A DNA stretch of 64,000 nt from contig OX597842.1 in the NCBI GenBank assembly GCA_951406725.2, forward strand, positions 10,602,001-10,666,000, read 5' to 3'. Source of the stretch: Octopus vulgaris (taxonomy: Eukaryota). The position numbers were made by a program, and so were the translations under genes. The notes below the pieces were generated by a model, which was given only the letters and a program-made list of their open reading frames with translations, was not told where the DNA came from and made no database searches. Each line of letters starts with the position of its first letter. Within the stretch, counting starts at the first letter, position 1. This document shows, in pieces, positions 620 through 58,140 of this stretch.

Positions 620-3305
620 CTGCAAATAATACAACATGAAGATGTCAGAGAATTAAAAAAAAAAAACCATTAACAAATAAATGTTTACGGAGATGTACTT
701 GCATAGCAAGTGACTTGATCTGAGATCATGTGCTGCAACGAAAATGTTTGTTTTGTTAGTCAACCATTTCGTTTTAATTCATGTTCCGAATACCGGCTTA
801 ATTAGGACAAAGTCATTTAAATAAATTCTTCATTATTGCCAAAAACTGAAACAAAGTCTGCGTATTTCTACAGAAATATGCTAAGAAAAGGGTTAAGGTG
901 GTCTAAATTAAGACCTTCGATCAAAATTTCAAGGTAATTTATGTTAATTTATGTTTAATTTATGTTCCAAACACTAGATTAGTAATGACAAAATTATTTT
1001 ACTAAATTCTTCGTAATTTTAAAAATTAATTGAAACAATGGCACCGTATTTCTACAGAAATCATCATCATCATCATTGTTTAACGTCCGCTTTCCATGCT
1101 AGCATGGGTTGGATGACTTGACTGAGGGCTGGCGAACCAGATGGCTGCACCAGGCTTCATTCTTGATCTGGCAGAGCTTCTACAGCTGGATGCCCTTCCT
1201 AACGCCAACCACTCCGAGAGTGTAGTGGGTGCTTTTACATGCCACTGGCACGGGGCCAGTCAGGTGGTACTGGTAATGGCCACGCTCAAGTGGTGTTTTT
1301 TACGTGCCACCTGCACAGGAGCCAGTCCAGTAGCACTGGCAACGACCCCGCTCGAATGTTGTTTTTCACATGCCACTGGCACAAGTTACCAGTAAGGTGA
1401 CGCTGGTAATGATCACGCTCAAATGATGCTTTTTACACCACCGGCACGGAAGCCAGAGAGATGCTCTGTTCTGAAATATTTTAGTGATTCTGTCTGATAG
1501 TTTACCTATGATGAACAAGTCTGGTAGTTGAGAGAGCAATCTCTAGGAACAAATAAACTTATATATCGAGACATTATTGTATATATAAATTTTTCTTATT
1601 CTAAATGATCTGGAGATTGTTTTTACTTAACATAAATTATTCTTTACATTCTGGTGTTGTTTTATTGCCATTTATTTACAAATAAAGTGTAGTGGGTGCT
1701 TTTATGTGCCACCGGCACAAGGGCCAGTCAGACGGTACTGGCAACGGCCACGCTCGAAATGGTGTTTTTTATGTGCTCCATTTGAGCGTAGCTGTTGCCA
1801 TAATAATAATAATAATAATGATATAATAATAATAATGATATCATCATCATCATTTAACGTCCGCTTTCCATGCTAGCATGGGTTGGATGATTTTGACTGA
1901 GGACTGGCGAACCAGATGGCTGCACCAGACTCCAATCTTGATCTGGCAGAGTTTCTACAGCTGGATGCCCTTCCAAACGCCAACCACTCTGAGAGAGTCG
2001 TGGGTGCTTTTATGTGCCACTGGCACGAGGGCCAGTCTGGTGGTACTGGCAACGGCCACGCTCGAAATGGTGTTTTTTACATGCCACCTGCACAGGAGCC
2101 AGTCCAGCGACACTGGCAACGACCTCGCTCGAATGTTTTTTCACGTGCCACCGGCACAAGTGTCAGTAAGGCAACACTTGTAATTATCACGCTCGAATGG
2201 TGCTTTTTACGTGCCACTGGTATGGAAGCCATCGCCCTTACTTCAGTTTTTGGTCGATAAGGACCAGAAGTTCTTTGAGTGCAGAATCATGAAGTTGCCA
2301 GAAAGATGGCAAAAGGTCATCAAAGAAAATGGAAAATATATAATTGATTAAAGTCCATTCTTAGTATGAAAAACAAATGACCAAAAAACTGAAACACTAA
2401 AAACACTGAAATATGCTTTAAAAAAAAGGGTTAAAGTGATTTAAATTAAAACTTTCCTTCAAAATTTTATGTTAATTTATGTTTAATTTATGTTAATTTA
2501 TGTTAATTTATGTGTAATTTATGTATAATTTATGTTTCAAACGCCAGATTAATAATGTCAAAATTAACTGAAATTTTGATTGGGAGGTTTTAATTGAAAT
2601 TACTTTGGGATAAGTTAGAATCAAAAAAGGGTCGTTGCAACCTACCACAATAATGGCGATTCGGCCTCCTACGTCACCAACCACATTTAGAGGGGGTTTT
2701 TCTTTAGCTTGTAGCACTGCAGAAAAGACAAACAGACAGACATAGAATGCGTGTACGTATGTATACATATACATACAAATATGTAATTGTAAGATACGAA
2801 GGTGTTGGTGTTGGTGATGATGATGATGGTGGTGATGATGATGATAATGACGATGATGATGATTGTAATGATAATGATGGTGATTGTGGTAATGACGATG
2901 ATGATAATGGTGATGATGATGATGGTGGTAATGACGATGATGATAATGGTGATGATGATGATGGTGGTAATGACGATGATGATAATGGTGATGATGATGA
3001 TGATGACAGAGATGATGATGATGGTGATGATGATGATGATGGTGGTAATGACGATGATGATAATGGTGATGATGATGGTGGTAATGATGATGATGACAGA
3101 GATGATGATGGTGGTAATGACAATGATGATAATGGTGATGACGATGGTGATGATGATGATGGTGGTAATGACGATGATGATAATGGTGATGATGATGATG
3201 GTAGATGATGATGATGATGATGATGATGGTGGTGATGATGATGATGATGATGATGATGACAGAGATAATGATGATGATGATGATGACAGAGATGATGATG
3301 ACAGA

Positions 3306-15070: not shown

Positions 15071-18000
15071 TCTTTTACTTGTTTCAGTCATTTGACTGCG
15101 GCCATGCTGGAGCACCGCCTTTAATCGAGCAACTCGACCCCGGGACTTATTGATTTGTAAGCCCAGTACTTATTCTATCGGTCTCTTTTTGCCGAACCGC
15201 TAACTGACGGGGACGTAAGCACACCAGCATCGGTTGTCAAGCAATGCTAGGGGGACAAACACAGACACACAAACATATACACACACACACACACTTATAT
15301 ATATATATACATATATACGACAGGCTTCTTTCAGTTTGTTGAAGTGCCAGGGTGCTCCATCAAATCACAACTATGTAGGATGTACCCCTTTGAGAATACC
15401 TCATGCACTACTGAGAACTGCACGTGGAAGAGGTAGACCCAGGAAGACCTGGGATGAGGTGGTGAAGCATGACCTTCGAACATTAGGCCTCACTGAGGCA
15501 ATGACTAGTGACCGAGACTTTTGGAAATATGATGTGCTTGATAAGACCCGGCAAGCCAAATGAGACCATAACCTCGTGGCCTATGCCAGGGGCGTAACCA
15601 GCCCACTTATGCGTACCTTTCCTTCATTGGACACTAAACTCTGCTTGCGAAGACCTGTTGAGGCAAGTGAAATCAAATTCGATGACAACACCGCATGACT
15701 GGCATCCGCGCTAAGAGCACCATCCAAGTGTGATCATTGCCAAGGCGGCTTACTGGCCCCCGTGTCGGTGACATGTAAAAAGCACCATTCAAGCGTGATC
15801 GTTACCTGTGTCGCCTTACTGGCACACGAAAAACAACATTCGAGCGAGGTCGTTGCCAGTACCGCCTGACTGGGCCTCATGCCGGTGGCACATAAAAAGC
15901 ACCCACTACACTCTCAGAGTGGTTGGCGTTAGGAAGGGCATCCAGCTGTAGAAACTCTGCCAGATCAGATTAGAGCCTTATGCAGCCATCTGGCTCACCA
16001 GTCCCCAGTCAAACTGTCCAACCCATGCCAGCATGGAAAGCGGGACGTTAAACGATGATGTCATATTAATTATTTATGTCATAATATTATTTAGGAAATA
16101 ATGTAATTTTTCGAAATTAAATTCGGTCTGTACTTAACCATTATTATTATTATTTCGCCAACATTAGGATAAGTACATTAAAAAAAATATAGAATACCTC
16201 ATAAGTGATATCATCATCATTTAACGTCCATTTCCCATGCTAGCATGGGTTGGACGGTTCAACTGGGGTCTGGGAAGCCTGAAGGTTGCACCAGGCTCCA
16301 GACTTATCTGGCAGTGTTTCTACAGCTGGATGCCCTTCCTAATGCCAACCACTCCGAGAGTGTAGTGGGTGCTTTTTACGTGCCACCAGCACAGGTGCCA
16401 GACGGGGCTGGCAATGGCCACGATCGGATGGTGCTTTTTACGTGCCACCGGCACGGAGGCTAGTCGGGGCGGCGCTGGCAACGGACAAGCATCCTAAATT
16501 CAGTGGCGGCATTAATGAAGATGTTACGAGTTAATTTAAGATTTATTAATGTATATCAAATTATACATAGGTATATATATATATAGGATTTAAACGGATA
16601 CAAGGACTTGTGATCCGCCCATGGACCTTTTGCTTTGGAAATTTTTGCCCACTGCACTAAAAATTTTCCCCCACCCTATTCTAGACACACTATGTCAGAA
16701 TAAATGTTGGGATGGTCACGGCTGGAACATCTTTGATCATAGGCTGTCTGTCTGGAACAGGACTGACCTGGGCTAAACAACAGCAACTAGTCACTAATAC
16801 TAATTAGTATGTTGTACATTAGATAATGTAGTCCTAGATACACTATGCCTGAATGAAAGATGGGATGGTCACAGCTGGAGTATCTTTGATCATCGGTCTG
16901 TCTGGATCAGGACTGACCTGGGGCTAAACAACAACAACTATAGCCACTAATACTAACTACTATACTGTACATTAGATAATGTAGTCCTAGATACACTATG
17001 CCTGAATAACAGATGGGATGGTCACAGCTGGAACATCTTTGATAATGGGTCTAACTGGATCAGGACTGACCTGGGGCTAAACAACAACAATTATAGCCAC
17101 TAATATTAACTACTACACATTAGATAATGTAGTCCTAGATACACTATGCCTGAATAATAGATGGGATGGTCACAGGTGGAACGTCTTTGATCATAGGTCT
17201 GTCTGGATGTGGACTGACCTAGGGTTAAACAACAACTATAACCACTAATACTAACTCCTATACATTAGATAATGTAATCCTAGATACACTATACTTGAAT
17301 AAAAGGTGGGATGGTCACAGCTAGAACGTCTTTGATCATTGGTCTAACTGGATCAGGACTGACCTGGGGCTAAACAACAACTATAGCCACTAATACTAAC
17401 TACTATACTATACATTAGATAATGTAGTCCTAGATACACTATGCCTGAATAAAAGGTGGGATGGTCACAGCTAGAACGTCTTTGACCATAGGTCTGTCTG
17501 GATCAGGACTGACCTGGGGCTAAACAACAACTACAGCCACTAATACTAACTACTATACTATACATTAGATAATGTACTCCTAGATACACGATGCCTGAAT
17601 AATAGATGGAATAGTCACAGCTAGAACGTCTTTGATTATAGGTCAGTCAGGATCAGGACTGACCTGGGGCTAAACAACAAGAACGACATTACGATCCTTC
17701 AATCCGTTCGTTAGACAAACACAGACGAACGTCTCTCCTCCCCTTCTCTCATCCGCCTCATATCTCAACACAAAAGCCTAAGCCACCACCACGTGGTTGC
17801 CCTACATTCTTATAAAAATCGCTGCCTCTTGAAAAAAAAATTCTTTTATAATAAGCGAAGGATGCGTTAGACAACGCTAGTCCCCACCGCACCCCCGATA
17901 AGTTATTAGCTGAAAAATAACTGCTGCTACTACTACTACTATTACTAATAATAGTAATAATAGTGATTTCATTTATTTACCATGAGGGGGACAATATAAA

Positions 18001-25601: not shown

Positions 25602-26358
25602 AGGCAGCGAGCTGGCAGAATTGTTAGCATGCCGGGCAAAATGCTTAGCGGTATTTCGTCTGCCGTTACGTTCTGAGTTCAAATTCTGCCGAGGTCGACT
25701 TTGCCTTTCATCCTTTCAGGGTTGATTAAATAAGTACCAGTTATGCACTGGGGTCGATGTAATCAACTTAATACCTTTGTCTGTCCTTGTTTGTCCACTC
25801 TGTGTTTAGCCCCATGTGGGTAGTAAAGAAATAGGTATTTCGTCTGCCGTTACGTTCTGAGTTCAAATTCTGCCGAGGTCGACTTTGCCTTTCATCCTTT
25901 CAGGGTTGATTAAATAAGTACCAGTTATGCACTGGGGTCGATGTAATCAACTTAATACCTTTGTCTGTCCTTGTTTGTCCACTCTGTGTTTAGCCCCATG
26001 TGGGTAGTAAAGAAATAGGTATTTCGTCTGCCGTTACGTTCTGAGTTCAAATTCTGCCGAGGTCGACTTTGCCTTTCATCCTTTCAGGGTTGATTAAATA
26101 AGTACCAGTTATGCACTGGGGTCGATGTAATCAACTTAATACCTTTGTCTGTCCTTGTTTGTCCACTCTGTGTTTAGCCCCATGTGGGTAGTAAAGAAAT
26201 AGGTATTTCGTCTGCTGTTACGTTCTGAGTTCAAATTCTGCCGAGGTCGACTTTGCCTTTCATCCTTTCAGGGTTGATTAAATAAGTACCAGTTATGCAC
26301 TGGGGTCGATGTAATCAACTTAATACCTTTGTCCCCTTGTAGGCAATAAAGAAATAAG
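25602..26358 (+). repeat. SINE family B, locally amplified as a 184-bp tandem array (~3.7 near-identical units)
   Basis: Unit starts GTATTTCGTCTGC at 25651, 25835, 26019 and 26203. It carries B-box-like GAGTTCAAATTC and the core CTTTCATCCTTTC.GGGT.GAT.AAATAAGTACCAG. Dispersed copies at about 3935-4330, 4590-4770, 4880-5060, 24680-24850 and 26740-26830. Confidence 0.85.
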
Positions 26359-26731: not shown

Positions 26732-27557
26732 AACACCGGGGAAAATCCTTAGCAGTATTTCGTCTGTCGCTACGTTCTGAGTTCAAATTCCGTCGAGGTC
26801 GACTTCACCTTTCATCCTTTCGGGGTCGGTGGCAAAATTTGAAACCATTATTATTAGAACTATTAGTAGTAGTAGTTGTTGGTGCTGTTGTTATTCTCTG
26901 GCAGAACTTGTCGGAGACTGTAATCTGTCCTATTTTAAACACAAAAGTGATATAAAAAAAGAGACCACGACTATTATTTCTATTATAGAATGTAGGGCAA
27001 CCACGTGGTTGCCCGTGGCTCGGTGTTTTGAGGTGGAGGAAGACGCTCTTCTGTTTGCTTAACGAATGGATCGAAGGATCATTATGTTGATATTGTTTAG
27101 CCCAAGGTTGGTCCTGATCCTGACAGACCCATGATCAAAGATGTTCCAGCTGTGGCCATCCCATCTTTTATTCAGACATCAGGGACTACATTATGTAATA
27201 TATAGAATAGTTGTTAGCATCAGTGGCTATAGCTGTTGTTGTTTAGCCCCAGGTCAGTCCTGATCCAGTCCGAACTATGATCAAAGATGTTCCAACTGTG
27301 ACCATCCCATCTTTTATTCAGACATCAGGGACTACATTATGTAATATATAGAATAGTAGTTAGCATCAGTGGCTATAGCTGTTGTTGTTTAGCCCCAGGT
27401 CAGTCCTGATCCAGTCCAAACTATGATCCAAATGTCCCAGCTGTGACCACCCCTACTGGTGACAAAGGTTGATTGTCTGATGCATGTTTGCAAACTTCCA
27501 TACTTCACGGCAGTGAAACATGGGCCGTGACTGCTTAAGACAGCCAGGTATCAAACT

Positions 27558-29581: not shown

Positions 29582-29582
<1 letters not shown>

Positions 29583-30601
29583 GTGATTTGAGGGAAATTT
29601 GGCTGCTGTATTTAACAGATTAAATGACCACATACGGGTCAAGATAGTGATTTGAAGGAAATTTTGCTGCTATTTTTAGCAGGTTAAGTTACCACATACA
29701 GGTCAAGGCAGTGATTTGAGGAAAATTTTGCTGCTATTTTTAGCAGAAATAAGTTACTACATACAGGCCAAGACTGAGTGATTTGAGGGCGATTTTGCTA
29801 CTGTTTTCAGCAGATTAAGTTACCACATACAGGTGAAGACAGGGATTTATGAGAAATTTTGCTGCTATTTTCAGCAGATTAAGTTACCACATACAGGTCA
29901 AGACAGTGATTTATGGGAAATTTGGCTGCTATTTTTAGCAGATTAAGTTACCACATACAGGTCAAGACAGGGATTTATGGGAAATTTGGCTGCTATTTTT
30001 AGCAGATTAAGTTACCACATACAGGTCAAGACAGGGATTTATGAGAAATTTGGCTGCTATTTTTAGCAGATTAAGTTACCACATACAGGTCAAGACAGGG
30101 ATTTATGGGAAATTTGGCTGCTATTTTTAGCAGATTAAGTTACCACATACAGGTCAAGACAGGGATTTATGGGAAATTTGGCTGCTATTTTTAGCAGATT
30201 AAGTTACCACATACAGGTCAAGACAGGGATTTAAAGGTAATTTTGCTGCTATTTTTAGCAGATTAAGTTACCACATACAGGTCAAGACAGTGATTTATGG
30301 GAAATTTGGCTGCTATTTTTAGCAGATTAAGTTACCACATACAGGTCAAGACAGTGATTTATGGGAAATTTGGCTGCTATTTTTAGCAGATTAAGTTACC
30401 ACATACAGGTCAAGACAGGGATTTATGGGAAATTTGGCTGCTATTTTTAGCAGATTAAGTTACCACATACAGGTCAAGACAGTGATTTAAAGGCAATTTT
30501 GCTGCTATTTTTAGCAGGTTAAATTACCACATACAGGTCAAGGCAGTGATTTGAGGAAAATTTGGCTGCTATTTTTAGCAGATTAAATTACCACATACAG
30601 G
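29582..30601. repeat. 64-bp minisatellite (~16 units)
   Basis: GATTAAGTTACCACATACAGGTCAAGACAG(G/T)GATTTATGGGAAATTTGGCTGCTATTTTTAGCA, recurring at 29941, 30005, 30069 and onward. Confidence 0.93.
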
Positions 30602-31540: not shown

Positions 31541-32530
31541 ATTTAGCTGCTATGTTTAGCACACCGAGCAACCACATAGGAGCTCTGATAGTTATGTTGT
31601 TGTTTAGCCCTGGGTCATTTAGCTGCTATGTTTAGCACACCGAGCAACCACATAGGAGCTCTGATAGTTATGTTGTTGTTTAGCCCTGGGTCAACCAAAC
31701 TCTGATTGAGGAGACAAGACTTATGATGCATGGCATGCCAACCGTGCCCACCCTGTCTGTTGTAAGAGTACGCAGGACTCACATTGCCTGATGCGCCCTG
31801 TCTTTCAAACAAGAATGGTAGGATGAGACTCAAGGGAGATTTGGCTGCTATTTCTACCAGGACAAGAGACCACACTGGACTTGGCAGTGATGGTAGGTGT
31901 AGCAGTGGGTGGTGGTGGTGGCATTGATGACGCCCACACTCCACTCCACCTGTATGACATATGTGCCCCCACATGCGCACCCCGTTGCCACCAGGTGTCA
32001 GTTGCTCCCAACGACGATATCGTACCCGGCCTTGTTGTTGTTTAGCCCTGGGTCAACCAAACTCTGATTGAGGAGACAAGACTCATGATACATGGCTTGC
32101 CAACCGTGCCCACCCTGTCTGTTGTAAGAGTACGCAGGACTCACATAGGATGAAGACTCAAAGGAGATTTGGCTGCTATTTCTACCAGGACAAGAGACCA
32201 CACTGGATTTGGCAGTGAGGGTAGGTGTAGTAGTGGGTGGTGGTGGTGGCGTTGATGATGCCCACACCCCACTCCACTTGTATGACATATGTGCCCCCAT
32301 ATGCGCACCCTGTTGCCACCGCCTGCCACCAGGTGTCAGTTGCTCCCAACGACGATGTCGTACCCGGCCTCTTGCGCCTCCCTCCCGACTCTTCCCTAGG
32401 CCCCGCCTACCATATCCATCTCCACCCCCTTGCCACCAGGTGTCAGTTGCTCCCAACGACGATGTCGTACCCGGCCTCTTGCGCCTCCCTCCCGACTCTT
32501 CCCCCGGCCCCTCCTACCATATCCATATCC
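31541..32530. repeat. Nested tandem duplications across the zinc-finger stop codon and proximal 3'UTR
   Basis: 31541-31617 matches 31617-31693; 31673-31992 matches 32033-32320; 32324-32425 matches 32431-32538; a third stop-region copy lies at 31987-32030. Confidence 0.88.
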
Positions 32531-35500
32531 ATCTCCATCATCATCATCATCATCAGCGAGTGGGTGCGCATGTGACGACTGAGGGTCCTCGACTCGGTGA
32601 AGGTCTGACTGCAGTAGACGCACCGGTAGGGCTTTTCGCCGGTGTGGGTCCGCACGTGCTTGGTGAGGTTGCTGGAATCGGAGAAGCGCTTCTGGCAGAA
32701 ATTGCACGAGAAGAGCTTCTCGCCCGTGTGGATGCGAATGTGCTTGGTGAGATTGTCCGACCGGGAAAACCATTTGTGACAGTGCGGGCAAGGGAACGGC
32801 TTAAGCCCAGCATGGACCTTCAGGTGACGTTTCAGATGACTCGGCCGGGTGAACATTTTACGACAGTCGTACTGAGGGCAAGTGTATTGCTTCGCGGTCG
32901 ACTGAGCACCACCGTGGCGAGGCAGCTGCTGCTGTTTCCTCTGCAGAGCCTTTATCAAGCTTGTGGTCGTCGAAGGTGCAATATGGTCAGTCGGCATCAT
33001 AGCTGTTGTTGTTGTTGTCGCGGTTTGCTGATCCTGCTGCTGTTGTTGTTGTTGTTGCCAGCGACGCTTCATCATGTCAGCATCATAAGAAGGTTTATCT
33101 AACTGAAGCCCGCAGTTGCGTGCGAGGATGTCGATGGCAGAGGCGTTTGCGGTTTGACCTTTGTCGGTAAACGAAGCGAGATTCAAAGTGTTCAACAGAA
33201 ACGGCTGTCCCACAGAAGAGGGAGAATTTGAACGGTAGGCGCTTTCATCAGCGGGTAAGGAAGGAAATGAAGATAAGGGTAACGATGATGATAATAATTC
33301 ATGGTGATTGTCATTAAGTTCGGAAAACGTTACCTTACGATCAGCATCGTTATCTAATTGATCAGCGAAAACATTACCGAGGAAATGGGAAGAATTGCGC
33401 TTACTCTTAAGGGACAAGTCCCTCTCAATTAGCATTTCTCTGACATTATTCAGGGCTGGGAGTTGATTACCAGACAATAAGGATGCTAGCTCGTCAGCGT
33501 TAAATATCGCATCGGAAAACTTGGACAAGTCTTCGGTCTTAATTTTGGAACTGATTGGCACCATTGCCGAGCAATCAGAGTCTGTGGAAAATTCTGGTTC
33601 GATTTTGATAAAAGGCTTCGGAAAATCCAGATTATTTTCAGCTGGTTGAAGGCAAGACAAGAGGGACAAAGAGTTTGGTAGGGGCTGGCTAAGATTTTCT
33701 TTCAAGGTCCTGCTTTCCTGGTTGAGTTCCTTACAGTCAACAGCGTCCATTGATCCTGTAGGAGTCGCTTTTGCGGTCATCAGAGACGACTGTTTGTTAC
33801 CATCGTGTTGTATGAATTGGGCATTGTTATAAGATGAGGTGTTGTCTGGACGGTCGGCCAAGATGAGGTCAGCAGCCACTTGGTTCGACAAATTCTGGGA
33901 CTTCCTTTCAGCAGCGTCGACAGACATGTGGTTGTCTACGTCCTCATAATCTTCACAGATGCCCGCTTCATTCTCCCTAGCGCTTAAAGTCATGGCGACA
34001 TCGGACGGAAGACAATCCATGTTTGTCGCCGCTGCAGGCTTCCACGCCGCGGTCACTGTGTGGTGCAGTAGCTCGTCGCACCATTTGTCCCCTTTTTGCA
34101 GAAGCAGTTGTAGGGTCTCGTCACTGAGGGAGCTGAGGAAATCGAGCATTGCATCTCGGAACTGTCCGTCGTTTTGGTTCGACTCCCATTGGGACGGAGG
34201 AAACTTGTTAACCCTAGAGACATCGCCGTTGCTGTTGTCAACCTCAAAACCTCCCTCGGGCAAGGACGATACCAATATATCGCTTGCGCAGGGTTGAGAC
34301 ATTTCCTCCTCCTCCTCATCTTCCAGTTTCACATTCACGTTCTCAAAGACGTCCTTCAGATCCTCTGTCTGTTTCATCATTACGTTATCAGCGTGATGCG
34401 TGTTGGTGGACCCAGCAGGAACCACTGTCATTGTGAACCCCAAATTTTTCATGCTGTTCCTGTAGTTAGGACCATCCGACGTCAAAGGAACATCACCATC
34501 ATCATCATCATCCCCGTCATCATCAGAAAGGGACATTGCAGAATTAGAATTTGAATCCGAAATACAAATGACATTGTTGGTTTTGCATTTCTGGTCTGCA
34601 ACAAGGGTCGATTCGGGGCCACCGTTGGCACCGGAGAAATAATTCTTATTCCGAAACTCGACAAACTCGTCAAAAAGCAGAAATTCTTGAATGCATTTCT
34701 CGGCCTCGGGTTGTTTGTCAGGGACCATTGCAGTTCCTTTCCGAAAGTTTCCGTTCCCGTCGTAGTAAGAATTCGATGGTTCCTGATCTGCATTGCTGTA
34801 AAATCCTGCAACATCAGTGTGGTGGGCATCTTTTGAATTTCGGGTCGTATTAAGCAGGTCATAAGATAGACGAACGCCTTGGGATTTGAAGTTGATGTCC
34901 TTGAGTTCGTCAATGGTATTCTCCGAGGAAAACTTGAGGTCAATATTTTTAAGTTCTTCGGCAGCATCGATGGCCGATGGAAATTTGAAGTTGATGTCTT
35001 TGAGTTCTTCGTCATCAAGAGTGGAAGGAAATACAAAATTCTCATTCAGGGAAACTGTACCAGCTAAGAGCTCAGCGTTATCAGAAGAGGCTGACCTCTG
35101 GAATGGTTCTGAAGTGTTAAGATTTCCATCCTCAACGACATCTTTGCCTTCTGCAACTCCCACCATGGGTCCTTCTCGGATGTCAACCTCCTGTTTGATA
35201 TCGGCCCGACTTATACCCCCGACAGAACCACAACTGTTTTCTGCTTCAAACTGACCCCTCCCCTGTGGAATCTCACGTACATGAGCAGGGAGAGAAGGGA
35301 TGAGAGGCACACCGCCGTCTCCGCCCCTCCACGGAAACAGCTCCATCACTGAGCCAGAGGCGGTGGAGGTACGATAACCATCATCTCGTTGTTCATCAGG
35401 CTCCGGCGTCTTTGGTTCTTGCTTCATGGCGCTACCATCAGGGAGTACAAATTCTTGTTTCACAGCCAAAGACAAATTCTCTTGGAAAGGGTCAACCAAG

Positions 35501-35587
35501 GATTTCTTGGGAAAATTCTCGGCGGACGATTCCTGAAAATTGTTGTAGTTGTTGTTGTCATTTATTGTCCTGTTACTGTTGTAGTTT

Positions 35588-35628
<41 letters not shown>

Positions 35629-38600
35629 GCTACAGCTGTTGACATTGATGGTGGTGGCAGTGGCGGTCGTGGTACTAGCAACAGTGGTAACCATATTATT
35701 CCTCGGAGCACCAACAAGACAGCTGCTGCCATCTGCTGTACGTAGGTCATCATCTCCACGGTTCCCGTGGTCATTCGGTCCGCAACGTATTTCAGCCGTC
35801 GTCTCAGCTTGTCTTTGCACCTGAACGCCGGGGGAAGACAAGGACGGAACCGAAGCCGCCCGGTCTGAGCCCGGGTCTTGACCAGAACTGGCCGGACCAA
35901 ACCCAGCGCTCGGCGACGAAGAAGCTGATGGCAGCGGGGATGAAAACTGCAAATGCCAAGGTGATGACGATGATGACAGCAATACTGACCGCTCACTGGA
36001 CACTACGATGCTTGATCTGGCTTTTGCTTTGTTCTGCTGGACGTCCAACTGATCCTGCAATGGTAACTTTGCCGAGTCTTCTGAGGTAGACTCGGTCAAA
36101 TTATGGCTGGCAGAAGTAATATTGGAGTCACTTGAGCCACTGGTGTTAGTCACAGCATTGGTCAAGCTCTCAGTCTCGGAGAAAGCACCGGACGATATAT
36201 CGGTTTTGGAGACAGAACTAATTGAATTGTGGTGACCGAGGGAAATATTGGTGTTACTTGAGCCATCACTGTTGGTGATAGCAGTGGTCAAGTTTTCAAT
36301 ATCAGAGGTAGTACAGGACAGTACGCTGTTGGGTTTTGAAACCGAATTGGTTAAATCATTTCCACTGGTCAAGCTGTTGACATCGGAGATGGCACTGTCC
36401 ATCTTGTCGTCATGGGAGACGACGGCGCCGGTCAGCTTATTGCCACCGAGGGAAACGGTATCAGTGAAGCTGTTAGTGTTGTTGCTACTGCTGCCTTGAC
36501 AATCTCTGAGGAGGTGGTCATTGAACATGTTGAGGTCTTGGATGAGCTCTCCGCACTCTTTACACCTGAACATCTCACCTGTCGTGTGTAGTTTCAGGTG
36601 ATGTGTCAGCTCCTCCACACCGGAGAAGAATATCTGACACCGGGAGCAATGAAAGAGACGGTTTCTAGGGTGATGGTCACTATCATGAAGACGACGATGT
36701 ACACGAAGATGTTGTTGGTGTTGATGGCTCTGATGACTACTATTATTTTCATCATCATTATCATCATCATCATCACTGTGGTTAATATAAGGATGAAGAC
36801 GACTGTGATGATGATGATGAGGATTATAGGGGTCACTCGGATTAGGGTTATTATTGCCGCTGTAGAGATAATCATCCATTTCTGTATCCATCTCCACTTT
36901 GAACCCACCGACAACTGTCAGTGTAGCGTTTCCAGCAGCCTCATCTTCCTCTTCTTGATTTCCATCCTCATCATCTTCTTCTTCTAATACTTCCTGCTTG
37001 ATATAATCAAGCATAAAGGGACTGACATTACAAAGGGAGTGACAGTTAGGATCACCAGGTATGGCAAGCAAAGATGCACCACTTGTCTTGCTGAACAACG
37101 TCCCCGAGCTGGTTCCTCTGGAAACGGACACTGGTGAACGTATGTTCCGCTGAGAGGCCACTGGGGCAGTTTGACCATGTTCGTCCTCGCCCACGTCTTC
37201 TTCCTCTTTCATCTCCTCCTCCTCCATCTCTTCATCATTTTCCTCTCCGTCGTCTTTTACTGTCAGCGAGGCAGCAGTGATGGTGGTTATATGGAACCGG
37301 TAGATGTGGTTGGCAAGGGTGGACTCATCGAGAAATACCTTCCCACATTGGTGGCACCGATACAACTTGTCTCGCAGCTGTTTTTTGAAGCGTTGCAACA
37401 GGGCAGTAGGCCCAGAACCAAATGTCTTCTTCAGAGCTGAGGTGGCGTTCTTAGCAGACGATGACATGGACTGCAATGAAAGTGATAACAATGATGATGA
37501 CGATTGTGGCGGTGATTGTGGTATCACAGAAAAGGCAGTAGTAGTAGTAGTACTAGTAGTAGTAGTATTAATATTAGTAGTACCAACGGCAGCCCTAGCT
37601 ACAGCAGCAGAAATGCTTCTTAAATCTGTTGCTGATGAGGACGGCACTGAATAAGGTAGCAAAGGAAGATGTTGTTGTGGTGATGGTGATGGTGGTGGTG
37701 ACGGGGATGTTGTTTCTGATTGAAGTAGTGTCTTCAATTGCGGCGGAGACTGGCCAAGTTTAGCATGTGTGAGTAAATGGCGATGCAGCGCGATGGAGTT
37801 GTCGAAAGGCTTTGAGCAGAGCATGCACCGAAAGGGAGACAACTCTGTAGACGGGGGCAGCAATGGTGAGCCGCTCTCCCGTTGCTCCGGGTTTTGCTGT
37901 TGCTGCCGTGATAGGAAGCAGCGGCTTTCGTAGCTATCGTCATCATCTCCTCTGCTGTCATCGTCATCGTTATCGTCTCTTTCACTGCTTCCGGTGGACA
38001 TGTGCGGCGGCGGAAAGCTGTGGTCTTGGTTACTGTTGCTATGGTTACCACTCCTGCTACTGTTGCTCTTACTGGGTGCAGTTGCACCACCCGAAGCAGC
38101 TGTTGCCGCCGCTGCGCGCGCGTGCGTCCGCAGATGTTTGGTGAGGTTGCTGGAATCGGTGAAGCGCTTCGTGCAGATGCTGCACGAATAGCGCTTGTCG
38201 CCCGTGTGGATGCGCACGTGCTTGACGAGGTTGTCCGAGCGGGAGAATGCGCGGTCGCAGTACGCGCATCGGAACGGCTTGATGCCCGCGTGGATCTTCA
38301 GGTGTCGGTTCAGCTGCGTCGACTTGGAGAAATTCTTCCAGCACACCGAGCAGGCATGCACCAGGTGGCACCAGCGGAGATGCTGCGTGAGGTCAAGGGC
38401 TGAGGAGAACGAAACTGGCAATGAAGACGCCGATTCCCTGCAATACTTACAGGGAAATTCTTTGATATTTCCATTGCTTCTTACACTTCCATCTTTCTTG
38501 TCATTAGCTGCAGCGGAACTGGTCAAATTTGCAGCGGAACTGGTCAAACTTGCAGCGGAACTGGTCAAATTTGCAGCGGAACTGGTCAAATTTGCAGCGG

Positions 38601-41042
38601 AACTTGTCAAATTTGCAGCGGAACTAGTCAAACTTGCAGCGGAACTGGTCAAATTTGAAGCGGAACTGGTCAAATTTGCAGCGGAAAAACTAGCAGTAGT
38701 AGTAGTAGATGTAGCAGAAGCAGAAATCACAGGAGAAGTAGAATCTACAGCAGCAGCAGAAGTAGTATTAAATGCAGCGGAGGTAGCAGTAGATATGGCA
38801 GCGGAAGCAGTTGTGGATGAAGTGTGCGTAGCAGCGGTACTGCCTCTACTGCTACTAGTGGTAACAACAGTAGTTGTAGTGCTACTACAGCTGTTATTAC
38901 TGTTACTATTACAACTACTAGTGCTCTGGTAGCTGTTATTATTATGATCATCATATTTAGTAGTAGTGGTGGTAGGAGTAGTAGTAGTAGTAGTAATAGT
39001 GGTGGAAGCGGCAGTTGTGGTCCCAGTTTCGGTGTTAACAATTTCAACATCCAGGGTCTCTTTGTCACTTGATGCTTTTGTCAAGGGGCCAACACCCGAG
39101 CTGTCTCCCTTGCCGAGATCTTTCGATGGCGCAGTGTGGACACGTGACGGAGGAATTCGTATCGAGTCGTCGTGGCGCACCGAGCGATCACGTGGTGGCA
39201 CCAACGCTTCCTTCTTCACTTTTACTTTCACTTTCGAATCCGTAGCAACACGGGAAACGGGTGGCGTCGGCGTTGTTGCCGATGGCGTTGAAGGACCCGA
39301 CACCGACATCGAAGTCTGCTTCTGTGGTGCCGTACTAAAATTTTCATCAGTGGGTGAGGCCCTATTGGAAACTTCCATATGGCTCACAGACCCAAACCCT
39401 GTCACTTGGCTATCATCACCGCCGTCATCTACCACAGAGACTAACGTCTCACCCGTCTCTGTCTTCAAAACAACACCCTGGGGCATTGCAACAGAACTAT
39501 ACCGATCGACCATGCTAGAACCAACATCATCATCATCGTTATCATCAGTAAGAACCGTAGTGTTTCTAGCAAAGATTTTGGATTTGCTTAATGAAATCTG
39601 ATCCACAGACATCAAATTCTGGAAGGATCTACTGGTAGATATACCACCAACTGCCACTTCTTTTCCTTTTCGGTCTCGACAGATTCCAGTTTCTTTCACT
39701 TCTTGTTTGATAACCCGTCGGAAATCACACTCTGATACTTGACCAATTTTGCTCAGGATTTTGGCGACAATTGCATCAACTTCAACAGTAGACTCGTTAC
39801 CACTAATTGCCATTAATTTCCCCGTTTCTTCTTGTTCTTGCTGTCCTTGTGTTTCTTTTTCCTTGCAAGCAGTGTTGCGGAGAGATGAACCAAAATCATT
39901 TCCTTGCCGTCTTTTCTTCTTCACCATGCCGAGGGCATCAAAAGCTTCTCGCTCACCATTTTGTGACAACCCTGTTAAATCCTCCGTACTTAATCCAATG
40001 CCATCCAAAACAGTCAGACCATGCTGCAGCAACATCGAATTCCCTGGCTCTTTGATGCTGTCCTCTTTCTTATCATCCTCCGTGTCATCGTCCTCAATCT
40101 CGCTATCAGATAGTATTATCTCCTGTTTCAATTTTGGTGCCGATGGATTTACGACCACCACCGAGGAAACAGGGTCTCCTGCCGACAACGGAAGACGACG
40201 ATCGGGATTTAGTCCCTGGTCATCTTGTGCCATCGTGCGATGGTCAAACTGCGGTTGGCCGCCAACAAGTCTCGCGGAGACCAATCTCTGCTGCACGAGA
40301 TCAGTCTTATCCTTGCCTCGGTTTGATCTGTGGTTCCGATCTTGAGCCGGACATTGCCTCCGATGCTTCGACAGTCGGACACTGGAGCTGAAGGACTCTC
40401 CACAGTTCTTACACTCGAGTCGCCGTCGGATGTGACATTTCAGGTGATCAGCCAACGCTAAAGCCCTTGGAAACGCTGCCTTGCAATAGAGGCACTCATA
40501 CGGAGGGCCTGCTGACCCTACATGAAGGTCTTTCAAGCTTGTTGCTCCACCGACCCTTGATGCTTGGAATAAATCCATACTACCATGGTTTTCCAACAGC
40601 CGCCTCTTCACATGGATCTTTGACACATCCTCGCTAATGCTTCCCAACAGTGTATTTATACGGTTAACTTGTCCCAGTTTATCGTCATCGTATTCATTCT
40701 TTATGCGGAACGGGGCCACGTCCTCCCCTTCTTCTGGACAGTCATCTACGTGGCCCTTTACGTGCATCTCCAACGAGGTTCTGGAGAAAAACTGCATGCT
40801 GCAGTAACTGCACTGGAACGTTATCGGAAAACGGTTACGGGCCCTGCCTAAACTGTTCACATGATGGAATCTGTCGACGGAATGACGTGCGGTGGGCCTT
40901 GACGAACCAGAAGCTTTCCGGCTGACTGGATTGGGTAACAGTGTGGCAGCATTCGCAGAATATGAAAGTAGTTGATCAAAATCAAAACCGACATGGTTCG
41001 CTGATTTTGTTCTGTTCTGTTTTAACTTCATCTTACTAATAT

Positions 41043-41074
<32 letters not shown>

Positions 41075-42174
41075 GTGTTATTACTATTGTACATCTGGAT
41101 GTTTTCATTGGTTTGCGACAGTTGTCTTATGATGTGATCGGTTCTGCTGAAGACATCCGTTGCTATGGGCAGCGTTGTGTTCTTAGGTGGGGCCTTTACG
41201 ATCTCCTCATCTTCTCCGTCGGACCATTGCAAAAGATTCCCTGTATACGAAGACTTGCTTGCAGCGGCTCCTGCATCTGGTCCTAGCAATCGCGCCTCAT
41301 TTGAGGGTTCACCAATTGCGCCGAGAGTCCCCCTTGCTTTTGCCTCTGACTTACTAACCGACGGCAGCCGTGACCGAGGGTGCGTCTGCAGTTGTGACTG
41401 CAACTGCGCGCCTTGCAGATTCGACACATCTGCTGTTGTCGCGGTGGTGGTGGCGGTGGCTGTGGAGGTGGTCATGGTCGGAAATGACCTCTCTTTATTG
41501 ATAATGTGGAGGATGTTTTGCATCTGGAGTCGCCTCTGCACATCAGCAGCGGCTGCAGCTGCGTCGCTCAGGGACAGCAACGACGCCGCATCGCCACTGG
41601 CATCCATGCTGCTTCCACGACGGTCGTGACCACCCACGGAGAGATTGTCACGGAGTGCAACTTCACCACTTCCGTTATCAGTACTGCTGCCACCACCACC
41701 ACCACCACCACCACCACCACTACCACCATTGCCATCGTCGGCGGCAACGGTGCTGCCGTTTCCGTCGGACACGCCGTGGGTCAACAGGTGGCGCCGGAGG
41801 GTGTCCGACTTGCGAAACGTCTTCGAGCAGAGCGTGCACGTGTAGCGCCGTGTGCCCGCGTGCGTGCGCATGTGCTTGCTGAGGTTGCTCGAATCGGTGA
41901 AGCGCTTCAGGCAGAATTCGCAGCCGTAGCGCTTGTCCCCGGTGTGAATGCGGACGTGCTTGATAAGGTTGTCCGACCGGGAGAACGACTTGTGGCAGTA
42001 CTTGCACTCAAACGGCCGGAGACCGGAGTGAATCTTCAAATGCCTGGCTAGATGGCTGTACCGATCGAAGTCTTTGCTGCAGTACTGGCATTTGAACTGA
42101 CGCACCTTCGAAGAAACAGTGGCATCGTTAGCGCCTTCAATACCAGATACTGCACTCATAGACAGGGAATCCAT
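32443..42174 (-). CDS. Giant single-coding-exon multi-cluster C2H2 zinc-finger protein (3243 aa, about 17-19 fingers)
   Basis: Uninterrupted 9732-nt ORF. Canonical C2H2 arrays with TGDKR/TGEKP/AGIKP-type linkers at about 41775-42096 (4 fingers), 38120-38360 (3) and 32560-32890 (4). Isolated or paired fingers near 40770-40820, 40350-40500, 38370-38460, 37765-37835, 37290-37365 and 36500-36655. Long low-complexity linkers. An acceptor-like TTTCTTAACTAGCAG lies 20 nt upstream of the ATG. Confidence 0.93.
38510..38685 (-). repeat. Coding 21-bp tandem repeat (AANLTSS x8) inside the zinc-finger ORF
   Basis: GCAGCGGAACTGGTCAAATTT units on the plus strand. Confidence 0.93.
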
Positions 42175-42238
42175 TTCAATATATAATATATATTCTGCTA
42201 GTTAAGAAACATATGTAGTCTGGATTTCACCCTCAATT

Positions 42239-42274
<36 letters not shown>

Positions 42275-44218
42275 AATATATTTTTGTAATTATAATATCC
42301 AAGGGTCTAATTGTAGGAAGTTAGTAAGCTTTGAGCAGTCCGTGGCAGGTGTAAAAGAAATCAGTGTTCAGGAATAATAATGGTTTATTGGTGAGGATTA
42401 TAGGCCTTTCTCATACTGAAGTTTGATAAACTGAAGCACCTTTATATAATGAAGGTATGTTTGGCCTGATGAATAGCTAGCTGAGTAACCCTCATTGAGT
42501 AATTGTATAAGAGGATCTGCTAGTTAAGAAACATATGTAGTCTGGATTTTACCCTCGATTTGGATATATATATATGTACAAATATATTTTTATCCTTTGT
42601 TTTAGTCATTGAACTGTAGCCATTCTAGAACATTCCTTTGATATATATATATTGATATAAATATATAGGAAAAAATATAGTAAAAAAGGGCCGCTCCAAA
42701 TTTGACCGAAGTAGGAGGTAAAAATCATGGAAAACTATCTTATGATTTTGGGCATTTTTTCTTGAAAATCTATGTCATGTCTAATGTCTTTTATGTATAT
42801 TTCAGTTTTGCCCCTATGTACCCCTCTTTTCCAACATCTTTCAATCAAACTTTTCTTTCAACATGATTCCTTCACAAAATAGTCAGTGCCATGTTAGGGC
42901 ACTGCCTTGATATATAAATCCATAAATACACACACATGTATGTGTATATATATATATATAGATATATATATGTTTGTATGTATGGGTAAAATATATGGGG
43001 TGAAAAGGGCCAGTTAATCTTTAAATTCTGACCAAAGTAGGGGCCAGAGAGACATAAATCATGGAAAACTATTTTTCAATTTTGGAGTTTTTTTCCTTCA
43101 AAATCTTTTACAATGGTTTCTGTGCTTCCTTTTACATTTTTAAAAATTTATTTTTCTTACTTTTTTTATCTCATCTCTTCTCCAAAATATTTTCATCAAA
43201 TTTTTTTCTCTAACACAATTTCTTCACAAAACTGTCGGCATTTCTCACCACCATATATAGTCATTTGTGATTATGTCTCCACAAGTATTTAAAATTCATA
43301 TTTATCATTTCTTCATGGAACAGCTGGTGCCATGCTGGAGCACACAAACATTTTTCCATTCAATACAATTTCTTTAAATAGTTGGCACCTCTCACTTTCT
43401 ATAAATTTTTTTCACATATTTATGATTTCTCCACAAAATGGTTGCCACAGCTCACTTGCATATTGACAATTCAAAGTTTTTCATCCAAAAATTTCTTCAG
43501 AAAGTGATTGGGGCTTCTTGAATGTAGGTGATTCAAAATTTTCCATCCAATAAAATTCCACAAAACAGCAAGTGCCTCTCACTTGCATATAGACATTAAA
43601 ATTTTTCATCTAACACAAAATTTTCATAAGATGGCTGCCATCTTTTGCTTGTGTATAAACACTTCAAAATTTTCCATCCAACATTTCTTCAAACAAATAG
43701 CATCTCTCACTTATAATTTCCGGAATTTTTTTATTCTTTTCTTCCTTTATTCCAGTTTTTCTCTGGAAATTTTTTTTCAAATTATCCTCATCTCTCACTT
43801 GTAATTTCCGTAATTTTTTAAAATCTTTCCTTCTTTATTCCAGTTTTTCTCTGGGAATTTTTTTTTCAAATTTTCCTGAAGCACAACACAACTCAATGAG
43901 ATGACTGCAACTTAACACCTCTCACTTGCATCATGGCTTTCTTGTTAATTTTTTAAATCCTTATTTGTAGTTTTTTTCCATTTTTCCGTAATAAAAAAAC
44001 TCAATATTTGTTATTTTTTTCCATGGTGTTTTTTATGTGTGTTTGATATACTTTTTTGATATCTGATCCCTTTTTTGTTTTTCAGTCAGTTCCCTGGTAT
44101 CCCATAAAATTCAAATCCTAATATAATATTATATATATCAATATATATAATGTTTGTTTTTTTTCTTCTTTTTCCTTTTGTTTTTGACTCTCCTTTAGGC
44201 TCCAGGATCAAATCCTAC

Positions 44219-56792: not shown

Positions 56793-57102
56793 AATGTTTG
56801 TTTAAATAAACCCATTTCAAGAAAGTATCAAACGGACCGCAAATTTAAAGTGTGCGGGTTTGCATGCGACCCGCGGGCCTCAGGTTGGCCAGCCCTGCTC
56901 CTACGCTGACCCCACCGTTTGACAGATGTTGCTCTCGGTCGCCTGACAAACTAGGTTAACTTCGTCGGAGGGGGGTGGGGTGTTTGTGTAGTAATCGACA
57001 GCTTGGCCATGTAACAGATGGTAATGGGTTACACTTTACAACTAAAATACCCACAACGATCTAATACTGACTCATACAATCACAAGACACACAGAAACGA
57101 AT

Positions 57103-58140
57103 AATTTGAATGAGATTTGGCTGCTATTTCTCGCAGACCTAACTACCACCTACAGATTTCCCTTATTGGCTCAGAACATGGTCTAATTTGAGTGAGATTT
57201 GACTGCTATTTCGAGCAGACCTAACTACCACCTACAGATTTCCCTTATTGGCTCAGAGCATGGTGAGATTTGAGTGAGATTTGACTGCTATTTCGAGCAG
57301 ACCTAACTACCACCTACAGATTTCCCTTATTGGCTCAGAGCATGGTGTGATTTGAGTGAGATTTGGCTGCTATTTCAAGCAGACCTAACTACCACCTACA
57401 GATTTCCCTTATTGGCTCAGAGCATGGTGTAATTTGAGTGAAATTTGACTGCTATTTCTCGCAGACCTAACTACCATGTACAGATTTCCCTTATTGGCTC
57501 AGAGCATGGTGTAATTTGAGTGAGATTTGACTGCTATTTCAAGCAGACCTAACTACCACGTACAGATTTCCCTTAATGGATCAGAGCATGGTGTAATTTG
57601 AGTGAGATTTGACTGCTATTTCTCGCAGACCTAACTACCACGTACAGATTTCCCTTATTGGCTCAGAGCATGGTGTAATTTGAGTGAGATTTGACTGCTA
57701 TTTCTCGCAGACCTAACTACCACCTACAGATTTCCCTTATTGGCTCAGAGCATGGTGTGGGTTGAGTGAGATTTGACTGCTATTTCGAGTAGACCTAACT
57801 ACCACTTACAGATTTCCCTTATTGGCTCAGAGCATGGTGTAATTTGAGTGAGATTTGGCTGCTATTTCTCGCAGACCTAACTACCACGTACAGATTTCCC
57901 TTATTGGCTCAGAGCATGGTGTAATTTGAGTGAGATTTGACTGCTATTTCAAGCAGACCTAACTACCACGTACAGATTTCCCTTAATGGATCAGAGCATG
58001 GTGAGATTTGACTGCTATTTCTCGCAGACCTAACGACCACGTACAGATTTCCCTTATTGGCTCAGAGCATGATGAGATTTGACTGCTATTTCTCGCAGAT
58101 CTAACTACCACGTACAGATTTCCCTTTTGAGGGAGATTTG
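57103..58140. repeat. 82-bp minisatellite (~12-13 units)
   Basis: GAGTGAGATTTG(A/G)CTGCTATTTC...GCAGACCTAACTACCAC.TACAGATTTCCCTTATTGGCTCAGAGCATGGTGTAATTT, recurring at 57190, 57272 and onward. Confidence 0.93.

What the first reader, a model, noticed from the sequence alone, without database searches (positions are those of the whole stretch)
32443..42174. Giant intronless zinc-finger protein with three far-apart arrays sharing the same recognition helices (candidate multivalent DNA-bridging factor)
Seen: the helices (positions -1 to 6) are RYSHLAR/RSDNLIK/DSSNLSK/KSDTLRR in the N-terminal array, KSTQLNR/RSDNLVK/DSSNLTK in the middle array, and RPSHLKR/RSDNLTK/DSSNLTK/ESRTLSR in the C-terminal array. 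The linkers are also parallel (SGLRPF/AGIKPF/AGLKPF, then TGDKRY/TGDKRY/TGEKLF). The arrays are separated by about 1140 and 1740 aa of low-complexity sequence, while the beta-hairpin residues differ between them. Established: C2H2 helix positions -1, 2, 3 and 6 set base specificity, and the expanded octopus C2H2 genes are mostly long contiguous finger arrays. Inference: an old internal triplication under selection to keep one specificity would let one polypeptide bind up to three copies of the same motif. That would suit looping, insulation or satellite bundling. I do not recognise a named ortholog.
Basis: partly seen in the sequence, partly recalled or inferred. Interest (0 to 1): 0.8.

Follow-up and report, generated by a model that had tools for sequence, protein, structure and literature searches.

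The report
Three-handed giant octopus zinc-finger protein
An octopus gene encodes, in one unbroken 9.7-kb reading frame, a 3,243-amino-acid protein with three far-apart copies of one zinc-finger unit that are almost unchanged between octopus species, so it likely grips several copies of a similar DNA word at once; at least three other giant genes of octopuses and argonauts are built the same way from their own units.

Summary
In detail: one ORF (32443-42174, minus strand, 3,243 aa) carries three C2H2 arrays 1,141 and 1,747 aa apart. Fingers 2 and 3 have the same four base-contacting residues in all three arrays (0 of 5,126 other three-finger windows reach 7 of 8). Full-length orthologues exist in Octopus sinensis and O. 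bimaculoides, uncharacterised or misnamed. Against O. bimaculoides the arrays change at 3 of 295 residues (none in a helix), the spacers at 375 of 2,655. The arrays form one clade with dS 0.6-1.2, so this is an old internal triplication under purifying selection. The design is known in two-handed form (HIVEP/Schnurri, ZEB) and in ZNF236, but this gene is none of them. New here: three more octopod genes of 2,400-2,800 aa repeat their own cassette six to nine times. The likeliest function is avid binding to clustered sites, with co-regulators recruited through spacers rich in SUMO-consensus motifs. Long-range looping is possible but untested.

The parts
32443..42174 (-). Single open reading frame, 3,243 aa; orthologue of O. 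sinensis LOC115225209 and O. bimaculoides XP_014785846.1
41776..42090 (-). Array A (aa 29-133), four C2H2 fingers, helices RYSHLAR/RSDNLIK/DSSNLSK/KSDTLRR
   Evidence: 0 of 107 changes against both O. sinensis and O. bimaculoides
38122..38352 (-). Array B (aa 1275-1351), three fingers, helices KSTQLNR/RSDNLVK/DSSNLTK
   Evidence: 2 of 79 changes against O. bimaculoides, both in the first hairpin
32560..32880 (-). Array C (aa 3099-3205), four fingers, helices RPSHLKR/RSDNLTK/DSSNLTK/ESRTLSR
   Evidence: 1 of 109 changes against O. bimaculoides
37765..37827 (-). Lone finger at aa 1450; likely the displaced, drifting fourth finger of array B
   Evidence: 14 of 24 identical to finger 4 of array A; 4 of 23 changes against O. 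bimaculoides, two in the helix
40351..40812 (-). Three lone or paired C2H2-pattern fingers in spacer 1 (aa 455, 561, 588)
36499..37356 (-). Three lone or paired C2H2-pattern fingers in spacer 2 (aa 1607, 1843, 1871)
38353..41775 (-). Spacer 1 (1,141 aa): Ser/Thr/Ala-rich, five [VIL]KxE SUMO-consensus motifs, a basic KKKRR patch at aa 752, a 21-nt tandem repeat at 38509-38686; no Pfam domain other than fingers
   Evidence: disorder is inferred from composition, not predicted with a tool
32881..38121 (-). Spacer 2 (1,747 aa): acidic (net charge -116), Ser/Asn/Asp-rich, six [VIL]KxE motifs; no Pfam family above its cut-off
42194..42210 (-). Acceptor-like site (pyrimidine run, then CAG) ending at 42195, 20 nt before the ATG; candidate end of a 5' UTR intron
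   Evidence: sequence; one contig of run X4 stops at 42194, one study only; O. sinensis lists two accessions for the same X1 protein
32495..32496 (-). GT after codon 3226, where the O. sinensis isoform X2 protein departs; candidate alternative donor that changes only the tail behind array C
   Evidence: the downstream exon was not found in this window

Best explanation
This is a single-reading-frame octopus zinc-finger protein with three far-apart, strongly conserved copies of one finger cassette, and it likely works as a 'three-handed' transcription factor that holds two or three copies of a similar short DNA site at once. Shown: the anatomy, the internal triplication, purifying selection on all three arrays, and the SUMO-consensus excess. 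Inferred steps: (1) each array binds DNA on its own. (2) Fingers 3-2 of all arrays read the same six bases and finger 1 of A and C adds a G-rich triplet, roughly 5'-(T/G)AC-(T/A)(A/C)G-GGG-3' by the recognition code (mostly recalled, low reliability); B would differ in the last triplet. (3) The long, probably disordered spacers leave spacing and orientation of the sites free, so avidity favours regions with clustered sites (enhancers or repeats), as for ZEB. (4) The spacers, with 11 [VIL]KxE motifs, are SUMOylated and recruit chromatin co-regulators, more likely repressive ones. It is one of at least four octopod genes that each built such a many-handed protein from its own cassette.
For: Helices are identical in three Octopus species; arrays 0 of 295 changes against 85 of 2,725 outside fingers (O. 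sinensis, P=3e-4) and 3 of 295 against 375 of 2,655 (O. bimaculoides, P=1e-14). All three arrays are kept, including B, while the lone-finger regions drift like spacer (21 of 205, P=0.14). The arrays are one clade (100/98), with no spacer self-similarity and no identical run longer than 22 nt, so this is not a recent duplication or ongoing conversion. Spacer lengths stay within about 3% (1,141/1,147/1,106 and 1,747/1,748/1,776). [VIL]KxE occurs 11 times against a shuffled mean of 1.4 (maximum 7 in 500 shuffles), 11 times in O. bimaculoides, with 0 reversed ExK[VIL] and 0 [VIL]RxE in the window protein. [quoted passage not shown]
Against: No binding, motif, localisation or SUMOylation data exist here. 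Array B differs at 3 of 4 positions of finger 1 and the fourth fingers differ, and these differences are themselves fixed across species, so the arrays may read different full sites. Selected RSDNL helices in PMC1920264 Table 1 go with several triplets (RSDNLIK with TCG, RSDNLKK with TGG, RSDNLKD/V/T with AAG, RSDNLTR with GAG), so the motif prediction is loose. The predicted 9-mer is not enriched in the window (3 matches against 1.8 expected). The lysines of all 14 wider motifs are kept in O. bimaculoides, but at 86% spacer identity that alone is not significant. The SUMO-motif excess is found in only one of the three sister genes (P0156: 7 against 1.8; P0213 and P0255 not above chance). Only Octopus orthologues were found, so selection is shown over a short time span.
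Confidence: 0.55

Rival explanations
1. Architectural bridge: one molecule binds sites on distant DNA segments and holds loops, insulates domains or bundles satellite arrays without needing a dimerisation domain.
For: Spacers of more than 1,100 aa could reach tens of nanometres (recalled polymer scaling, not computed). Arrays sit at both ends of the chain: first finger at aa 29, 38 aa after the last; sister genes end 3-11 aa after their last finger. No BTB, ZAD or other dimerisation domain in Pfam. Cephalopod loop anchors are reported enriched for G-rich zinc-finger motifs (Maz, ZNF148) besides CTCF-like motifs (10.1101/2025.08.29.672809, passages). Human C2H2 proteins are proposed to bridge anchors (PMC13678222, passages).
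Against: No contact or binding data. The ZEB precedent concerns two half-sites in target DNA, not loops. The anchor motif enrichment comes from known-motif scans and names no octopus protein.
Confidence: 0.2
2. Divided labour: the arrays share a six-base core but read three different full sites (finger 1 of B and the fourth fingers differ), so the protein widens its target range or reads site combinations rather than repeats of one word; arrays may act one at a time.
For: B matches A and C at only 9 of 12 positions. Fourth-finger positions are K-D-T-R in A and E-R-T-R in C. These differences are fixed in three species. In the seven-array sister family each array keeps its own variant by position between Argonauta and P0036/P0037 (6 of 6 arrays).
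Against: The shared core is exact (8 of 8) and A equals C at 12 of 12 despite dS 1.24, which suggests selection for sameness.
Confidence: 0.15
3. Repeat silencer: the protein recognises a site in an abundant octopus SINE, transposon or satellite and seeds heterochromatin through SUMO-dependent co-repressors; several hands favour tandem copies.
For: Predicted motifs of octopus zinc-finger ORFs are reported enriched in transposon consensus sequences (PMC10547256, passages). SUMO-consensus excess. The window is rich in tandemly repeated elements.
Against: Repeat-chasing fingers are expected to change fast (recalled), whereas these helices are invariant. The predicted motif is not enriched in this repeat-rich window (only 64 kb, loose motif).
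Confidence: 0.08
4. Artefact or non-functional: the long ORF is an assembly join, several shorter genes in frame, or a decaying duplicate.
For: An older O. bimaculoides model covers only the last 626 aa (P0383). No single contig of the laid runs spans the ORF.
Against: Full-length 3,235-3,250 aa proteins with the same start, the same 18 fingers and only in-frame differences are annotated in two other species. Strong purifying selection on all arrays.
Confidence: 0.02

Closest known systems
HIVEP1-3 / Schnurri (ZAS family)
   Same: Very large C2H2 proteins (rat ZAS3 2,342 aa) with separated finger groups. A 1990 paper cited for HIVEP1 is titled as two widely separated motifs recognising the same DNA sequence (title only). 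In ZAS3 a 5.5-kb stretch encodes the first 1,654 aa (PMC1361774, passages).
   Different: ZAS proteins use finger pairs on several coding exons; this gene has three arrays of 4/3/4 fingers in one frame. No HIVEP/Schnurri name appears among the listed hits.
ZEB1/ZEB2 (two-handed zinc-finger/homeodomain proteins)
   Same: Two end clusters bind two separated copies of one box with free spacing and orientation; a long linker recruits co-repressors (PMC8304685, passages).
   Different: No homeodomain, no PxDL[ST] CtBP motif, three hands, longer spacers, different helices.
ZNF236
   Same: Conserved animal protein of 1,800-1,900 aa with separated 3-5-finger arrays in matching pairs and no spacer self-similarity (P0064 Patella, P0338 Corvus).
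   Different: Different helices (KPSDLVR/VKSTL.., KSSHLKQ/..GVLK.), arrays fall in separate clades, spacers 23-493 aa, no [VIL]KxE motif.
Other octopod many-handed genes found here: O. sinensis LOC115211127 and orthologues (P0213, P0505, P0506), Argonauta GAB1602320.1 (P0255, with unnamed P0036 and P0037), Argonauta GAB1602416.1 (P0156, named after LOC115211753)
   Same: 2,394-2,780 aa, only C2H2 families above Pfam cut-off, one 3-5-finger cassette repeated 6-9 times with kept helices, unrelated spacers, fingers close to both termini. All uncharacterised by name.
   Different: Each has its own cassette and helices; more arrays and shorter spacers (72-621 aa). The tree does not show a common origin with this gene's cassette (open fork).

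Membership tests
C2H2 (Kruppel-type) zinc-finger proteins | C-x2-4-C-x12-H-x3-5-H fingers joined by TGEKP-like linkers | tested here: met
   PF00096 E 7.5e-62, 15 stretches; 18 pattern matches
Multi-cluster ('many-handed') C2H2 factors, as a working kind | Two or more far-apart arrays with matching recognition residues | tested here: met
   8 of 8 for fingers 2-3 in all three arrays; 12 of 12 between A and C
Multi-cluster ('many-handed') C2H2 factors, as a working kind | Separate arrays bind the same DNA sequence, and bind simultaneously | not testable with these tools
   needs SELEX/PBM and binding assays
ZEB/zfh-1 | Homeodomain between the clusters | tested here: not met
   no homeodomain in Pfam scans of the whole protein or of either spacer
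ZEB/zfh-1 | CtBP-binding PxDLS motif | tested here: not met
   0 PxDL[ST] matches
HIVEP/Schnurri (ZAS) | DNA-binding units are finger pairs | tested here: not met
   units are arrays of 4, 3 and 4 fingers; pair architecture from PMC1361774 passages
HIVEP/Schnurri (ZAS) | Sequence orthology of the fingers | tested here: inconclusive
   no HIVEP/Schnurri name among the listed hits or the top 60 PDB hits, but no HIVEP sequence was aligned directly and the lists were swamped by poly-finger proteins
ZNF236 | ZNF236 helix sets and array order | tested here: not met
   helices differ; arrays lie outside all ZNF236 clades
CTCF-type or BTB/ZAD-type architectural proteins | One long contiguous finger array, or a BTB/ZAD dimerisation domain | tested here: not met
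   longest array is four fingers; no BTB or zf-AD in Pfam
Expanded octopus C2H2 clades (PMC12513265) | Placement in the cephalopod- or octopus-specific expansion clades of that study | not tested
   their tree, Dryad data and supplements were not read

The most novel reading that the evidence does not exclude
Octopods have repeatedly evolved giant, single-exon, many-handed zinc-finger proteins (3 to 9 copies of a gene-specific cassette on long flexible tethers) that act as monomeric, sequence-specific DNA bridges, each stitching together the copies of its own motif into loops or hubs: a CTCF-independent layer of genome folding in the rearranged octopus genome.
Probability: 0.2. Interest if true: 0.8.

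Novelty: new variant of a known kind. Interest (0 to 1): 0.5.

Why it matters
Far-apart finger clusters with matching specificity are known from a few animal factors (HIVEP/Schnurri, ZEB), in two-handed form. This gene shows a three-handed form under very strong constraint, and the follow-up found at least three more octopod genes with six to nine hands, each apparently amplified from its own cassette. They are hidden under names such as 'uncharacterized' or 'serine-rich adhesin for platelets'. They give concrete, clonable candidates (arrays of about 110 aa) for two open questions: what multivalency within one polypeptide does for target choice, and which proteins besides CTCF anchor the loops now mapped in cephalopods. 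If they only bind clustered enhancer sites, the result is a useful new set of transcription factors. If they bridge distant DNA, it would be a new architectural protein class.

Tried and rejected
Search for orthologues outside Octopus: three homologue searches (120 of 139, 120 of 5,949 and 120 of 235 hits listed), one search of cluster representatives (150 of 191,627) and 80 of 199 metagenome loci. The RSDNL..DSSNL signature was in 4 of 504 proteins, all Octopus, and in 0 of 80 loci. This is weak evidence of absence: lists were filled by poly-finger proteins, and the full-length O. bimaculoides protein was hidden behind a fragment representative. Atlas: generic C2H2 clusters only. PDB: generic fingers only. 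No whole genome held. Expression: no RNA holder listed; the runs are only guessed to be RNA. Contigs of X1, X4 and X10 tile most of the ORF in pieces of up to about 4 kb, none spans it, and they also cover DNA upstream; none of the 15 listed joints has minus-strand intron ends (257 not shown). The 322-nt skip 42194-42515 in X10 was rejected as an intron: it lies between 72-nt direct repeats and no register gives GT/GC..AG. Duplication of a larger module (array plus lone fingers): lone fingers of spacer 1 and 2 are only 5-8 of 24 identical and spacers show no self-hits; not supported. Telomere-repeat binding was considered from the R-x-x-H-x-x-R finger; finger 3 does not fit by the recalled code, rejected. 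Predicted-motif counts in the window: seven patterns, six within the range of 60 shuffles, and DAGGGG 80 against a mean of 62 (maximum 78), not pursued. No Rfam match. Six accession numbers: 0 papers. Searches for a description of this architecture in cephalopods showed none in the listings and passages seen; supplements and the Dryad set of PMC12513265, the closed bioRxiv supplements and the unheld 2015 genome paper may list the gene. Earlier-findings look-ups: nothing relevant. No fold or complex job was run, as none would decide the question.
Full report
Observation. The window is repeat-rich animal DNA. It holds one long ORF, 32443-42174 on the minus strand, 3,243 aa. A pattern scan finds 18 C2H2-type fingers: array A (aa 29-133, four), three lone or paired fingers (455, 561, 588), array B (1275-1351, three), four more lone or paired fingers (1450, 1607, 1843, 1871) and array C (3099-3205, four). 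Pfam finds finger families only. No other credible finger lies in the window (two pattern matches inside AT-rich repeats).

More than chance. Over the aligned 74 residues of fingers 1-3 the arrays are 51, 51 and 48 identical to each other. The best of 5,126 distinct three-finger windows from 522 other fetched records reaches 43 (means 31-33). At positions -1, 2, 3 and 6, fingers 2+3 match 8 of 8 in all pairs; none of the 5,126 reaches 7. Over three fingers A equals C at 12 of 12, and B matches either at 9 of 12. So 'same helices' is exact for the two-finger core and for finger 1 of the end arrays only. The finger at aa 1450 is 14 of 24 identical to finger 4 of A and is probably B's displaced fourth finger.

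Identity. The gene is the orthologue of O. sinensis LOC115225209 (isoforms of 3,250 and 3,240 aa, 'uncharacterized') and of O. bimaculoides XP_014785846.1 (3,235 aa, named 'serine-rich adhesin for platelets'). The window's exact protein is not in the collection; about 3% spacer divergence from O. sinensis points to a very close Octopus species. All three start at the same Met. The X2 form departs after codon 3226, at a GT (32496), and changes only the tail behind array C. An acceptor-like site ends at 42195, 20 nt before the ATG, and one contig of run X4 stops at 42194 (one study, less than a weak hint). The fair statement is a single coding exon in the longest form, probably with a spliced 5' UTR. 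No orthologue outside Octopus turned up, but the searches were swamped (see Tried and rejected).

History and selection. The six array rows of the window and O. bimaculoides form one clade (100/98) in a tree of 71 three-finger rows from 13 proteins; the bootstrap had not fully settled and few columns were available. Between arrays dS is 1.11, 1.24 and 0.59, dN 0.23-0.24, and the longest identical run is 14-22 nt; helices are 14-17 of 21 identical, hairpins 9-11 of 23. High GC3 in the arrays (0.78-0.89) probably makes these dS values underestimates (inference). Spacers have no self-similarity once fingers are masked. Against O. sinensis the arrays change at 0 of 295 residues and the non-finger sequence at 85 of 2,725. 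Against O. bimaculoides the counts are 3 of 295 (none in a helix) and 375 of 2,655; the lone-finger regions, which include a degenerate finger at aa 1240-1272, change at 21 of 205, not different from spacer. All three arrays are therefore functional units under selection, while the lone fingers probably do not read DNA sequence.

Spacers. They are Ser/Thr/Asn/Asp-rich, the second strongly acidic (net -116), which suggests disorder (inference). [VIL]KxE, the SUMO consensus (motif recalled), occurs 11 times against 1.4 in shuffles, 11 times in O. bimaculoides, and the reversed or Arg versions do not occur in the window protein. There is a KKKRR patch at aa 752 and no PxDL[ST].

Predicted site. 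By the recalled code finger 1 of A and C (R-1, H3, R6) reads GGG and finger 3 (D-1, N3, K6) reads (T/G)AC. For finger 2, Table 1 of PMC1920264 (passage seen) lists RSDNLIK selected on TCG, RSDNLKK on TGG, RSDNLKD/V/T on AAG (RSDNLKD also on CGG) and RSDNLTR on GAG. The prediction, about (T/G)AC-(T/A)(A/C)G-GGG, is loose. A related 9-mer pattern is not enriched in the window.

A class, not a singleton. Among 179 eligible fetched proteins (of 505; three or more arrays of 2-6 fingers), 29 have three or more far-apart arrays sharing at least 7 of 8 positions and 125 have two; many of the latter carry the name ZNF236. The set is biased, since it was gathered with this gene's arrays. The 29 fall into 12 genes. 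Seven of these show repeated spacers, that is recent module duplication. Five do not: this gene, the P0036/P0037/P0255 family, P0213, P0156 and P0274. By their public names four of the five are octopod: P0255 and P0156 are from Argonauta hians, P0213 from O. vulgaris with orthologues in O. sinensis and O. bimaculoides; P0274 is from a frog. They are 2,394-2,780 aa and repeat their own cassette six to nine times. In the tree the seven-array family is one side of a branch (91/91), 16 of 18 rows of LOC115211127 form a clade (99/93; the other two were cut out of register), and P0156's rows are unresolved (40/94). In the seven-array family all 6 Argonauta arrays of three or more fingers group with the same-position arrays of P0036 and P0037 (support 90-100), so amplification preceded the species split and each array has been kept since. 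Arrays there change at 49 of 695 residues against 671 of 1,856 in spacers (P0037 against P0036). P0036 was called as one gene on an 87-kb contig, which suggests a single coding exon there too (inference).

Mechanism. The most economical reading is a many-handed transcription factor. Each array binds a related site; long tethers leave spacing and orientation free; avidity selects regions with several sites; SUMOylated spacers bring co-regulators (0.55). Only the anatomy, history and selection are shown; binding, simultaneity and SUMOylation are inferred. ZEB is the worked precedent: both clusters are needed, and half-site spacing and orientation can vary (PMC8304685, passages). Long-range bridging (0.2) is compatible with the anatomy and has a testable setting, since cephalopod loop anchors are reported enriched for G-rich zinc-finger and CTCF-like motifs (10.1101/2025.08.29.672809, passages), but nothing here favours it over local clustering. 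Divided labour between arrays (0.15) is supported by the fixed differences at finger 1 of B and at the fourth fingers. Repeat silencing (0.08) sits badly with invariant helices. Artefact (0.02) is nearly excluded.

Comparison and novelty. It works like HIVEP/Schnurri and ZEB, and resembles ZNF236 in layout, but fails the membership tests for ZEB (no homeodomain, no PxDLS), ZAS (no finger pairs) and ZNF236 (other helices, other clades). Papers seen: PMC12513265 (part 1 of 7 and passages); passages of PMC3668361 (Fan and Maniatis 1990 as a title only), PMC12539977, PMC1361774, PMC8304685, PMC1920264, PMC7293014, PMC13678222, PMC10547256, 10.1101/2025.08.29.672809 and PMC13218726; no supplements were read. 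Six accessions gave no paper, and searches showed no description of this architecture in cephalopods; most subscription papers are outside the library. Verdict: a real, uncharacterised gene and a new variant of a known kind. The interest lies less in the single gene than in the apparent repeated origin of giant many-handed finger proteins in octopods. Interest 0.5.

Noticed in passing
P0213/P0505/P0506, P0255/P0036/P0037, P0156: Three further octopod genes of 2,394-2,780 aa with six to nine far-apart copies of a gene-specific finger cassette. The two Argonauta accessions (GAB1602320.1, GAB1602416.1) are close in number and share the same longest-contig length, so they may lie on one scaffold.
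   Followed up: partly
window 32001-42000: CpG observed/expected is 0.62-0.99 across the ORF against 0.11-0.47 in the flanks, and GC3 is 0.78-0.89 in the arrays against 0.39-0.50 in spacers: the coding exon shows little CpG depletion.
   Followed up: no
window 42194-42265 and 42516-42587: 72-nt direct repeat (92% identical) that duplicates the acceptor-like site 322 nt upstream; a contig of run X10 lacks the 322 nt between, which looks like a genomic indel, not an intron.
   Followed up: yes
window 32316-32531: The last 107 nt around the stop codon are tandemly duplicated (94%), with a further partial copy near 31980-32030.
   Followed up: no
window 38509-38686: In-frame 21-nt repeat (8.5 copies) coding a 7-residue unit just before array B; copy number is higher in O. 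sinensis.
   Followed up: no
P0501 (XP_014785846.1): The O. bimaculoides orthologue is misnamed 'serine-rich adhesin for platelets' and sits in a cluster represented by a 626-aa fragment, so name-based C2H2 surveys may miss it.
   Followed up: yes
P0137 (Protopterus), P0327 (Branchiostoma), P0191 (cluster with Xenopus), P0193, P0028, P0117, P0287: Proteins with repeated finger arrays whose spacers are also repeated, that is recent whole-module duplication; a possible early stage of the many-handed layout.
   Followed up: partly
window 16681-17680, 25650-26333, 27093-27453, 29582-30601, 57102-58126: Several arrays of 64-184-nt units with 92-99% (one 87%) identity between copies, some sharing pieces with dispersed elements elsewhere in the window; likely SINE-derived tandem repeats.
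   Followed up: no
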